This document shows positions 51,601 through 54,600 of a DNA stretch of 64,000 nucleotides, one piece after another (positions within the stretch are counted from its first letter, which is position 1; each line of letters opens with the position of its first letter). The stretch is taken from NCBI RefSeq assembly GCF_057098645.1, contig NZ_CM169472.1, one strand, 5' to 3'. The position numbers are program-made.

Positions 51601-54600
51601 ATACATGCACTACCGGACGCTTCGGCGTTTCATAGTTCGCCAGCACCCCGGCATCGCGCAAGGCAGCGCGTAGCGGAACAGTAAATTTACGGCAGAATTT
51701 CAGCAACTCTTTGCTTTCGTTGGTATCGGCAACTTCAACACGCAGTTCACCGCCCTTCTCTACTACGCCCTGCAACATGCCGACAATGGGGGTAATACGA
51801 TCTTCTGGCGGCAAATGCTGCAAGAGTTCCCCCACCACAAACCACTGGCGGGCAAAAATTAATGAACTGAACGGCAGCTCACGGATTAACTTATCGCCAT
51901 CATCAGGTTGATAACATTCATAAATGACATAACCCGCATTCTCTTTCACGCGGGCAAAACCGAAAATTTCCCGCTGGCCGGCTTTATCGGTAATTTCTGC
52001 GGCGCACTCTTTTTCAAAGCCCGGACGGCACAGCAATACAACCTTATTCATGACTTACGCCCTTGCGCTTTAAACGGATAGCACCAACTAACATTAACGC
52101 CCAGCCCGCAAGGAAGCTCACGCCGCCAACCGGAGTGACAAACGCCCACAAACGCAGATGGGACAGTGCCAGGCAATAAAGGCTGCCGCTGAACAGCACC
52201 GTGCCTAACGCGAGGAAAACGCTACTCCAGTAAAACCAGATACTAATGCGACGCTGCATTGCCACCGCCAGACCTAAGATCGCCAGCGTATGAAACGCCT
52301 GGTATTCGAGGCCGGTCTGGATCCAGCCCATCTCAACGGCCCCCATGGTTTTACTTAACACATGCGCGCCAAAAGCGCCCAGAGCCACAAAAATGAAGCC
52401 GCTAATGGCGGCGAAAATCAGCATAAAACGGCTGGTCATGGTCGTACCCTACGTAAATTATTGTTCATAACGAAAGCGGAATTTTTCTTGTTCAGCAGCG
52501 GCTTTCGCCAGGATCCATTGACGAAAGGCGGCTATTTTACCCAGTTCTGCCTGGCTGTCATGACAAACCAGATAAAAAGCGTTTTTACTGACCAGAACAT
52601 CATTAAACGGGCAAACAAGACGTCCGGCTTCAATTTCAGATTGCGCCATCACGTTATTTGCCAGCGCCACTCCCTGCCCGTGGATAGCCGCTTGCAGCAC
52701 CATGGCGCTATGGCTAAAAATTGGCCCTTGCTGAACGTTGATATGATTTAACCCCAACTGTCGGGTATATGTCTGCCAGTCACGGCGCGAAGCATCATGT
52801 AATAACGTATGTTTAGCCAGATCTTCCGGGGTCTTCAAGGGTTTTTCGCCAGTCAGCAGTAGCGGCGAACACACCGGCAATAAATATTCGGCGTACAGTT
52901 TTTCCACCCGTAGCCCCGGCCAGTTGCCCCGACCATAAAATATCGCCACATCAACATCATCCGCCAGCTTATCTTCCTGACGATCAACCGCCTGGATTCG
53001 AACGTCAATTCCCGGATAAGCTGAATTAAAGCTGGAAAGTCGCGGAACCAACCAATGAATGGCGAAACTGGGGAGTAAACTGACCGTCAACGCCCCCTTG
53101 GCGCTACGGGCCTGGAGTTTACGCGTCGCTTCGGTTAATTGCGAAAATATCTCTTTGATATCGAGGAAATAGCTTTGCCCTTCCTCGGTCAGCAGGAGTG
53201 AACGATTACGGCGGCGGAACAGTTTTAGCCCCAAAAAATCCTCAAGAGACTTGATTTGATGACTTACTGCGGCCTGGGTCACAAAAAGCTCTTCTGCTGC
53301 GCGAGTGAAACTTAAATGGCGTGCTGCGGCATCAAAAACTCGTAAGGCATTTAGCGGTGGTAATCGTTTAGACATGGCTTTTAAACTTTGATGTTAAATG
53401 AATTTAACAATTAGATCACACTGTGTAACCTATTAGTTTTTTTAATCTGAGCCATTATAAATTGTCCGTTGAGCTTCTACCAGCAAATACCTATAGTGGC
53501 GGCACTTCCTGAGCCGGAACGAAAAGTTTTATCGGAATGCGTGTTCTGGTGAACTTTTGGCTTACGGTTGTGATGTTGTGTTGTTGTGTTTGCAATTGGT
53601 CTGCGATTCAGACCATGGTAGCAAAGCTACCTTTTTTCACTTCCTGTACATTTACCCTGTCTGTCCATAGTGATTAATGTAGCACCGCCTAATTGCGGTG
53701 CTTTTTTTTACCTTGCGATCGCGAATTACTGATCCAGTTCGACCATCTCTTTCACGTCGGTACGGTTGATCTGCTGTTTGTTGCCATTAGCGTCTTTATA
53801 CGAAATCATACCGGTATCGTTATCAGTCTGTGGTTTGCCGTCAGAGACGATGGTACGTCCGTCATTGGTGTGCATCACATAGTTCGAACCGGAACAGGCG
53901 CTCAGGGCAAAAGTCAGCATACAGGCAGAAATAATTGCGGCAGTCTTTTTCATCATCTTCTCCTTAAAGCGATTAATAAATCTTAATAGTATTGATTAAC
54001 AGGCTAAAATTAACGCCTAACACTATTCAGCATATGTTACTGACGCGGCTTCGCCAGGATATCCAGATAATTCTGATGGTTAGCACTCTCCTTGTATCAA
54101 AGTGAATTTTGCGTCACGATCGGTGCATCAAGCCGAGGAGTACCATGAACGTTTTTAATCCCGCGCAGTTTCGCGCCCAGTTTCCCGCACTACAGGATGC
54201 GGGCGTCTATCTCGACAGCGCCGCGACCGCGCTTAAACCTGAAGCCGTGGTTGAAGCCACCCGACAGTTTTACAGTCTGAGCGCCGGAAACGTCCATCGC
54301 AGCCAGTTTGCCGAAGCCCAACGCCTGACCGCGCGTTATGAAGCTGCACGAGAGAAAGTGGCGCAATTACTGAATGCACCGGATGATAAAACTATCGTCT
54401 GGACGCGCGGCACCACTGAATCCATCAACATGGTGGCACAATGCTATGCGCGTCCGCGTCTGCAACCGGGCGATGAGATTATTGTCAGCGTGGCAGAACA
54501 CCACGCTAACCTCGTCCCCTGGCTGATGGTTGCCCAACAAACTGGAGCCAAAGTGGTGAAATTGCCGCTTAATGCGCAGCGACTGCCGGATGTCGATTTG

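What the first reader, a model, noticed from the sequence alone, without database searches (positions are those of the whole stretch)
53376..53709. gcvB sRNA divergent from gcvA
A 206-nt plus-strand RNA with the characteristic G/U-rich single-stranded region and an intrinsic terminator lies 128 bp upstream of, and divergent from, gcvA. The shared intergenic region should carry the gcvA-dependent control sites. It is not a protein gene and is absent from the ORF track.
Basis: partly seen in the sequence, partly recalled or inferred. Interest (0 to 1): 0.25.

Follow-up and report, generated by a model that had tools for sequence, protein, structure and literature searches.

The report
The known E. 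coli gcvB small RNA

Summary
Confirmed and ordinary. Rfam's GcvB covariance model (RF00022) matches window 53504..53709 (+) end to end, at 199 bits against a gathering score of 42. The 206 nt are identical to gcvB (b4443) of E. coli K-12 MG1655, which lies the same 128 bp from a divergent gcvA. The locus is present in 5425 of 5426 complete E. coli genomes.

The expected anatomy is all there:
- a sigma-70 promoter, TTGAGC-17-TATAGT, ending 6 nt before +1
- a long 5' stem-loop
- the G/U-rich R1 seed (nt 63-92)
- two intrinsic terminators, t1 and t2
- the R2 and R3 seeds

Across 69 distinct intergenic sequences from related metagenome loci, only the gcvB-proximal 74 bp is strongly conserved. This block holds the published GcvA site ATTAG-n5-tTAAT, centred at -65. 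In 109 of 119 related loci gcvA is divergent upstream. Eight loci are too short to tell, and two look like assembly chimeras. The mechanical 46-codon ORF inside gcvB loses its frame, stop or start codon in relatives, so the gene is non-coding.

The mechanism is taken from the literature: GcvA and glycine activate transcription, and the Hfq-dependent RNA represses amino-acid and peptide transporter mRNAs. Novelty: already known. Interest: very low.

The parts
52458..53375 (-). gcvA, the LysR-type regulator that activates gcvB and represses its own gene
   Evidence: ORF of 305 aa. NCBIfam NF008352 GcvA scores 512.8 bits against a cut-off of 288. Annotated gcvA in K-12 and in O145/O157 records.
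53376..53503 (.). 128-bp gcvA-gcvB intergenic control region with overlapping divergent promoters
   Evidence: Same length as in K-12, with 2 substitutions, at 53380 and 53423. A spacer of 128 bp occurs in 69 related loci and 129 bp in 20. PMC5002191 describes overlapping promoters.
53430..53475 (.). Conserved block that corresponds to the published 48-bp GcvA DNase I footprint. The exact footprint edges are inferred.
   Evidence: This is the most conserved part of the intergenic region in 69 distinct sequences, while 53376..53429 is poorly conserved. The 48-bp footprint and the CTAAT motif are reported in PMC5002191, citing Wilson et al. 1995.
53432..53446 (.). GcvA site IR1: ATTAG-TTTTT-tTAAT, centred at 53439, which is -65 from the gcvB start
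   Evidence: CTAAT on the minus strand at 53432..53436. The IR1 consensus ATTAG-n5-CTAAT is centred at -65 in PMC5002191. Columns are at least 95% conserved except 53444.
53454..53468 (.). GcvA site IR2 (degenerate: ATTAT-AAATT-GTCCG), centred at 53461 (-43) and abutting the gcvB -35. Its left half, read on the minus strand, is a perfect TATAAT (53459..53454), the likely gcvA -10 (inferred).
   Evidence: IR2 is placed at -43 and called the least conserved repeat in PMC5002191. ATTATA at 53454..53459. Conserved columns.
53469..53497 (+). gcvB sigma-70 promoter: -35 TTGAGC (53469..53474), 17-bp spacer, -10 TATAGT (53492..53497)
   Evidence: Promoter scan, 9 of 12 matches. It ends 6 nt before the first base of the Rfam and K-12 gcvB. 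It is conserved in relatives.
53504..53709 (+). gcvB, the 206-nt small regulatory RNA
   Evidence: Rfam RF00022 scores 199 bits against a gathering score of 42, full length. 206/206 identical to K-12 b4443. Fold z-score -3.6.
53510..53564 (+). SL1, the long 5' stem-loop (nt 7-61). One of the two SroC pairing sites lies here, according to the literature.
   Evidence: MFE and centroid folds. The outer stem is recovered by RNAalifold. Of 35 distinct SL1 sequences, 30 fold into one long hairpin closed by the same outer stem although the apical sequences differ; the other 5 keep the inner hairpin but pair the 5' end differently. SroC pairing in SL1 and SL4 is from PMC9299463.
53566..53595 (+). R1, the G/U-rich single-stranded seed (nt 63-92) that pairs with C/A-rich sites in target mRNAs
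   Evidence: Sequence located. The core TTGTGTTTGCA is invariant in 41 non-redundant relatives although the search pattern did not specify it. Function is from PMC9299463 and PMC4474525.
53598..53614 (+). SL2 hairpin (GGTCTG-CGATT-CAGACC)
   Evidence: Folds. RNAalifold stem at columns 103-119, with compensatory changes at 2 pairs.
53617..53637 (+). SL3, the internal intrinsic terminator t1 (stem 53617..53631 plus T6). Stopping here gives the short RNA of about 130-134 nt.
   Evidence: Terminator scan. RNAalifold stem with 3 compensatory G-C to A-U changes. PMC1557403, citing Urbanowski 2000, reports about 90% termination at t1 in E. coli.
53638..53651 (+). R2, a conserved seed (CACUUCCUGUACAU, nt 135-148)
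   Evidence: Located. Highly conserved positions in the Rfam consensus. Role in cycA repression is from PMC9299463 and PMC3658540.
53651..53677 (+). R3, the seed in SL4 (nt 148-174). It is used for phoP, lrp and other targets, and is a SroC pairing site.
   Evidence: Coordinates nt 148-174 are from PMC3536696. The 13 nt that the search pattern left free are invariant in 41 relatives.
53681..53709 (+). SL5, the terminal intrinsic terminator t2 (stem 53681..53702, 8 pairs of which 6 are G-C, then a U-run). In Hfq-dependent sRNAs of this class this is the usual Hfq-binding 3' end (general knowledge).
   Evidence: Terminator scan. The stem is invariant in 41 relatives while the loop varies.

Best explanation
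Window 53504..53709 is gcvB, the Hfq-dependent small regulatory RNA of E. coli. It is transcribed divergently from gcvA (52458..53375), with overlapping promoters in the 128-bp intergenic region.

Transcription control. GcvA binds the conserved block at about -74 to -29, which holds ATTAG-n5-tTAAT centred at -65 and a weaker repeat at -43 touching the -35. When glycine is present GcvA activates the gcvB promoter. With GcvR and no glycine it represses. Binding at the same block also represses gcvA's own promoter.

Transcripts. Transcription starts at the A at 53504. It stops either at the internal terminator t1, giving about 134 nt, or at t2, giving 206 nt.

Action. The G/U-rich single-stranded R1 (nt 63-92), and for some targets R2 or R3, pairs with C/A-rich sequences in or near the ribosome-binding sites of more than 50 mRNAs. 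Most of these encode amino-acid and peptide transporters and biosynthetic enzymes, such as dppA, oppA, gltI, cycA, gdhA, lrp and phoP. Pairing blocks translation. The sponge RNA SroC pairs with SL1 and SL4 and triggers RNase E decay of GcvB.

Shown here: identity, anatomy, conservation, synteny and non-coding nature. Taken from the literature, and applicable because the RNA and the promoter from -80 to +1 are identical to K-12: GcvA/GcvR/glycine control, Hfq dependence, targets and SroC.
For: - Rfam RF00022 matches full length at 199 bits against a gathering score of 42.
- The sequence is 206/206 identical to K-12 gcvB b4443, and the intergenic region differs only at 53380 and 53423.
- The locus is present in 5425 of 5426 complete E. 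coli genomes.
- The neighbour is GcvA, at 512.8 bits against a cut-off of 288.
- The promoter and two terminators are in the expected places.
- The fold z-score is -3.6, with R1 largely unpaired.
- Among 119 related metagenome loci, gcvA is divergent upstream in 109 and eight are too short to tell. The spacer is 128 or 129 bp in 89.
- Divergent relatives still score 100-179 bits on RF00022.
- RNAalifold on 41 non-redundant sequences recovers SL1, SL2, t1 and t2, with compensatory changes at 4 pairs.
- Of 35 distinct SL1 sequences, 30 fold into one long hairpin closed by the same outer stem; the other 5 keep the inner hairpin.
- The intergenic footprint is conserved only across 53430..53503, which contains the published GcvA repeats.
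- The internal ORF is not conserved.
- Literature: PMC1557403, PMC3536696, PMC9299463, PMC4474525, PMC5002191, PMC3658693.
Against: Nothing contradicts it. Three limits apply.

- No expression data exist for this particular strain.
- My crude R1-target duplex test was only weakly discriminating. For dppA, -27.1 kcal/mol was equalled by 26 of 1000 shuffles. For oppA, -23.1 kcal/mol was equalled by 178 of 1000. So target pairing rests on published experiments, not on my computation.
- The related loci were fished with a pattern in R2/R3. Invariance of those specified bases is therefore by construction, and the sample is limited to fairly close relatives (76-100% identity), which is why few compensatory changes were seen.
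Confidence: 0.98

Rival explanations
1. The locus encodes a small protein, the 46-codon ATG ORF at 53537..53677, either instead of or as well as acting as an RNA (a dual-function sRNA).
For: The ORF exists mechanically. The same 46-aa frame is kept in 14 of 41 relatives.
Against: - In the other relatives the frame shifts after SL2, so the C-terminus switches among three frames.
- Some relatives stop early, at 28-29 codons.
- In the most distant relatives the ATG is replaced by ATT, AGG, TCG, GTT or GTA.
- The ATG lies at the apex of the SL1 hairpin (loop and closing pair in the fold) and has no Shine-Dalgarno sequence upstream (sequence).
- E. coli GcvB RNAs were reported not to be translated (PMC1557403, citing Urbanowski 2000).
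- The partial conservation is explained by the conserved RNA seeds.
Confidence: 0.01
2. The match is a decayed or non-functional remnant of gcvB in this strain, for example silenced by the two substitutions in the intergenic region.
For: Two substitutions relative to K-12, at 53380 and 53423.
Against: - The RNA is 100% identical to K-12.
- Both substitutions lie in the poorly conserved gcvA-leader half, at -124 and -81 from the gcvB start. They are outside the conserved block 53430..53503 and outside the promoter hexamers.
- The same 501-bp sequence is 100% identical in many O157, O145 and other strains.
- gcvA is intact.
Confidence: 0.01

Closest known systems
gcvB (b4443) of Escherichia coli K-12 MG1655, Rfam RF00022
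   Same: Identical 206-nt sequence. The same 128-bp spacing from a divergent gcvA, and the same neighbours: rlmM-ygdD-gcvA | gcvB | ygdI-csdA-csdE-tcdA.
   Different: Only two substitutions in the gcvA-proximal half of the intergenic region, at 53380 (T for A) and 53423 (G for A). The host is an O145/O157-like strain rather than K-12.
GcvB of Salmonella, Yersinia pestis, Vibrio and Pasteurella multocida
   Same: A divergent gcvA-gcvB arrangement, activation by GcvA, two terminators giving RNAs of about 130 and 206 nt, a G/U-rich seed, and repression of dppA and oppA (PMC1557403; PMC9299463; PMC5900567 listed).
   Different: These are 53-95% identical in sequence. According to PMC9299463, Salmonella differs from E. 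coli by 10 nt. According to PMC1557403, Y. pestis is 77% identical and its t1 is weaker. The window's copy is the E. coli allele.
oxyR-oxyS and other pairs of a LysR-type regulator with a divergent target
   Same: The same logic: a LysR-type regulator binds inverted repeats in a shared intergenic region, activating a divergent small-RNA gene and repressing its own promoter (PMC5002191).
   Different: A different regulator, inducer (glycine versus peroxide) and regulon. PMC5002191 reports that gcvA-gcvB has two repeats rather than three.

Membership tests
GcvB RNA (Rfam RF00022) | Covariance-model score at or above the curated gathering score, over the full model | tested here: met
   199 bits against 42, model positions 1-204 of 204, E = 1.1e-46.
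GcvB RNA (Rfam RF00022) | Transcribed divergently from gcvA across a short shared intergenic region | tested here: met
   gcvA is on the minus strand at 52458..53375 and gcvB on the plus strand from 53504, with a 128-bp gap. The same arrangement holds in K-12 and in 109 of 119 related loci.
GcvB RNA (Rfam RF00022) | Conserved, accessible G/U-rich R1 seed between SL1 and SL2 | tested here: met
   R1 is at nt 63-92 and largely unpaired in the centroid fold. The core TTGTGTTTGCA is invariant in 41 relatives. Single-strandedness in solution is from the literature (PMC3536696).
GcvB RNA (Rfam RF00022) | Conserved R2 and R3 seeds | tested here: met
   CACUUCCUGUACAU is at nt 135-148. The 13 free positions between the specified parts of the search pattern are invariant. 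The specified bases themselves are invariant by construction.
GcvB RNA (Rfam RF00022) | Two Rho-independent terminators, t1 internal and t2 terminal | tested here: met
   Both were found by the terminator scan. They match the description in PMC1557403.
GcvB RNA (Rfam RF00022) | Stems supported across relatives | tested here: met
   RNAalifold recovers SL1, SL2, t1 and t2, and 4 pairs show compensatory changes. Of 35 different SL1 sequences, 30 fold into one long hairpin closed by the same outer stem, and the other 5 keep the inner hairpin. Covariation is modest because the relatives sampled are close.
GcvB RNA (Rfam RF00022) | Non-coding | tested here: met
   The internal 46-codon ORF loses its frame, stop or start codon in relatives. 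It was reported untranslated (PMC1557403).
GcvB RNA (Rfam RF00022) | R1 pairs with C/A-rich sites of dppA and oppA mRNAs | tested here: inconclusive
   R1 against K-12 leaders gives -27.1 kcal/mol for dppA at -44..-11 (26 of 1000 shuffles as good) and -23.1 for oppA at -10..+14 (178 of 1000). The positions are plausible but the energy test is weak.
GcvB RNA (Rfam RF00022) | Transcription activated by GcvA with glycine and repressed by GcvA with GcvR | not testable with these tools
   Only indirect support is available. The GcvA repeats sit at the published positions, the block is conserved, and the promoter from -80 to +1 is identical to K-12.
GcvB RNA (Rfam RF00022) | Hfq dependence | not testable with these tools
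   From the literature only (PMC4474525). The terminal hairpin with a U-run is present.
GcvA (LysR-type regulator, NCBIfam NF008352) | Full-length profile match above the curated cut-off | tested here: met
   512.8 bits against 288, residues 1-304 on profile positions 1-304 of 305.

The most novel reading that the evidence does not exclude
The most that could be new is strain-level fine-tuning. One possibility is that the two substitutions in the gcvA leader (53380 and 53423) alter gcvA expression, and so GcvB levels, in this O145/O157-like lineage. The other is that GcvB R1 also targets the yqcE transporter mRNA in this window, where the predicted duplex of -29.4 kcal/mol spans its start codon. 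Neither is supported beyond a crude prediction.
Probability: 0.04. Interest if true: 0.12.

Novelty: already known. Interest (0 to 1): 0.04.

Why it matters
It matters only as a correct annotation. [quoted passage not shown] Even so, the RefSeq/PGAP records of closely matching O157 and O145 strains list no feature between gcvA and ygdI. A reader using only a protein-gene track would therefore see an empty gap. Recognising gcvB there is useful housekeeping, not a discovery.

Tried and rejected
1. I scanned genome contigs with a pattern of 14 specified bases from R2, TTTNCACTTCCTGTA. Of the loci numbered L003-L122, all except L099 (whose origin I did not check) come from this scan; they are not gcvB relatives and were ignored.
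2. Full-length GcvB-versus-target duplexfold gave meaningless whole-molecule duplexes. I replaced it with R1-only duplexes, which were only weakly discriminating.
3. Counting the CTAAT motif across the window gave 66 found against about 101 expected. The pentamer alone carries no statistical weight. The evidence for the GcvA site is its position together with the phylogenetic footprint.
4. The primary papers of Wilson et al. 1994 and 1995 and Sharma et al. 2007 are not held. Footprint edges and R1 details are therefore cited second-hand from PMC5002191, PMC3658693, PMC9299463 and PMC3536696.
5. Tandem Repeats Finder found nothing at the CRISPR array. The repeat finder did find it.
6. I considered a protein-database search with GcvA, to fetch cross-genus loci, and decided against it as not worth the shared compute for a settled question.
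7. No GcvB target listed in PMC9299463 was found among the six window genes I queried: sdaC, sdaB, argA, csdA, relA and ygdI.

Full report
**Observation.**
- A 305-codon ORF on the minus strand ends its 5' side at 53375. It is GcvA: NCBIfam NF008352 scores 512.8 bits against a cut-off of 288, aligned end to end.
- Rfam's GcvB model RF00022 matches 53504..53709 on the plus strand over all 204 model positions, at 199 bits, gathering score 42, E = 1.1e-46.
- The gap between the two genes, 53376..53503, is 128 bp.
- The RNA folds at -62.1 kcal/mol, better than all 200 dinucleotide-preserving shuffles (z = -3.6).

**Identity.**
- E. coli K-12 MG1655 annotates gcvB (b4443) as a 206-nt ncRNA 128 bp from a divergent gcvA. 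The neighbours are the same: rlmM, ygdD, gcvA | gcvB | ygdI, csdA, csdE, tcdA.
- The window's RNA is 206/206 identical to K-12. The intergenic region differs at two positions, 53380 and 53423.
- A 501-bp query across the locus is found in 5425 of 5426 complete E. coli genomes, at 99% identity or more in 5388.
- The last 24 kb of the window is 100% identical to several O145 strains, so the source is an E. coli chromosome of that lineage.

**Anatomy.**
- Promoter: the consensus scan finds -35 TTGAGC (53469..53474), a 17-bp spacer and -10 TATAGT (53492..53497), ending 6 nt before the A at 53504.
- Terminators: there are two. t1 is the stem 53617..53631 plus T6. t2 is the stem 53681..53702 plus a T-run. 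This matches published work describing RNAs of about 130 and 206 nt, with about 90% termination at t1 in E. coli lacZ fusions (PMC1557403, citing Urbanowski et al. 2000).
- SL1 spans nt 7-61.
- R1, the G/U-rich seed, is nt 63-92 (53566..53595).
- R2 is nt 135-148 (53638..53651).
- R3 is nt 148-174 according to PMC3536696.

**Control region.** The literature held here gives the following.
- GcvA protects 48 bp in the gcvA-gcvB intergenic region.
- Its sites contain CTAAT within T-N11-A.
- Two 15-bp repeats, ATTAG-n5-CTAAT, are centred at -65 and -43 from the gcvB start.
- The two promoters overlap (PMC5002191; PMC3658693).

In the window these centres are 53439 and 53461.
- 53432..53446 reads ATTAG-TTTTT-tTAAT.
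- 53454..53468 is a degenerate copy that abuts the -35.
- On the minus strand, 53459..53454 is a perfect TATAAT. I take this to be the gcvA -10. This is an inference; the primary papers were not available.

The pentamer alone is not statistically informative, so I looked for a phylogenetic footprint. In 69 distinct intergenic sequences from related loci, 53430..53503 is almost invariant, whereas 53376..53429 (the gcvA leader side) is poorly conserved. Both substitutions relative to K-12 lie in the poorly conserved half.

**Relatives.** My first attempt to fetch relatives failed because the pattern was too short.
- A 21-base-specified pattern in R2/R3 then retrieved 120 metagenome loci. Their gcvB is 76-100% identical to the window's.
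- gcvA lies divergently upstream in 109 of the 119 loci with a gcvB match. Eight lack enough upstream sequence.
- In two loci (L198, L217) unrelated DNA joins inside or just upstream of gcvB. In L198 this is a gene that I judge by eye, untested, to be a Firmicutes pilus-assembly-like gene, so I read these two as assembly chimeras.
- The spacer is 128 bp in 69 loci and 129 bp in 20.
- Of the 12 divergent or atypical loci rescanned, 11 score 100-179 bits on RF00022; L230 has no match above the gathering score.

On 41 non-redundant sequences, RNAalifold recovers the SL1 outer stem, SL2, t1, a stem in the R2-R3 region, and t2. Compensatory changes occur at four pairs. The apical half of SL1 is too variable to align, but 30 of the 35 distinct versions fold into one long hairpin closed by the same outer stem, and the other 5 keep the inner hairpin while pairing the 5' end differently. 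R1's core, and the 13 positions of R3 that the pattern left free, are invariant. One caveat applies: the specified pattern bases are invariant by construction, and the sample is biased towards close relatives.

**Coding potential.** A 46-codon ATG ORF (53537..53677) lies inside the RNA. In relatives the frame shifts after SL2, premature stops appear, and the start codon is lost in the more distant sequences. E. coli GcvB was reported untranslated. The locus is non-coding.

**Mechanism.** Because the RNA and its promoter from -80 to +1 are identical to K-12, the published mechanism applies.
- GcvA activates gcvB when glycine is present. GcvA with GcvR represses it. Lrp also represses it (PMC3536696).
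- The Hfq-dependent RNA uses R1, and for some targets R2 or R3, to pair with C/A-rich sites and repress more than 50 mRNAs for amino-acid and peptide transport and metabolism (PMC9299463; PMC4474525).
- SroC pairs with SL1 and SL4 and triggers RNase E decay.

My own pairing check of R1 against the K-12 dppA and oppA leaders put the duplexes at plausible positions, -44..-11 and -10..+14. It was statistically weak, equalled by 26 and 178 of 1000 shuffles respectively. I count it as inconclusive.

**Verdict.** This is the already known gcvB-gcvA locus with no unusual feature. Interest is very low.

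Noticed in passing
window 53376..53725; L002 and L124: The RefSeq/PGAP records of matching O157:H7 and O145 strains list no feature between gcvA and ygdI, whereas K-12 annotates gcvB as an ncRNA. The O145 record also lists nothing where CsrB lies. These sRNAs are silently missing from the standard annotation of these strains.
   Followed up: partly
window 34964..35323 (-): A full-length CsrB sRNA (Rfam RF00018, 383 bits) lies between yqcC and syd. This is the known position, with barA about 6 kb away in the same window.
   Followed up: no
window 58194..58486 (+): Three tandem, near-identical tRNA-Met genes lie between mltA and amiC. From their position I take them to be the metZWV initiator-tRNA cluster.
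   Followed up: no
window 56724..56766 (-): An Rfam ES036 (CssrF) sRNA match, at 46.5 bits against a gathering score of 37.6, lies in the tcdA-mltA intergenic region. It is short and was not examined further.
   Followed up: no
window 12421..12636: A small CRISPR array with type I-E-like repeats (GGTTTATCCCCGCTGGCGCGGGGAAC) at 60-61 bp spacing lies between ygcE and queE. The window is about 61 bp longer here than O145 strain RM9872, which corresponds to one extra repeat-spacer unit.
   Followed up: partly
window about 13880..17450: A cluster of one LemA-family gene and three TPM-domain genes lies between queE and eno in the matching O145 annotation (window coordinates are shifted by about +61). 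I did not compare it with K-12.
   Followed up: no
window 9069..10346 (+), yqcE: Among 45 long-ORF 5' regions in the window, yqcE (an MFS transporter) gave the strongest predicted duplex with GcvB R1, -29.4 kcal/mol across -13..+22. That is stronger than the known target dppA in the same crude test. It may well be chance.
   Followed up: no
L198:1-930 and L217:1-1060: In two metagenome contigs the gcvB 5' part or promoter is joined to unrelated DNA instead of gcvA. L198 carries a 262-aa ORF that looks by eye (untested) like a Firmicutes pilus-assembly membrane protein. L217 carries what looks by eye (untested) like an O-antigen-ligase fragment. Both still match RF00022 full length. They are most likely assembly chimeras.
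   Followed up: partly
window 53681..53725: The gcvB t2 hairpin lies 16 bp from the stop codon of the convergent ygdI (53726..53956, minus strand). Read on the minus strand, the hairpin is not followed by a T-run. How ygdI transcription terminates, and whether it runs antisense into gcvB, is therefore not evident from the sequence.
   Followed up: no
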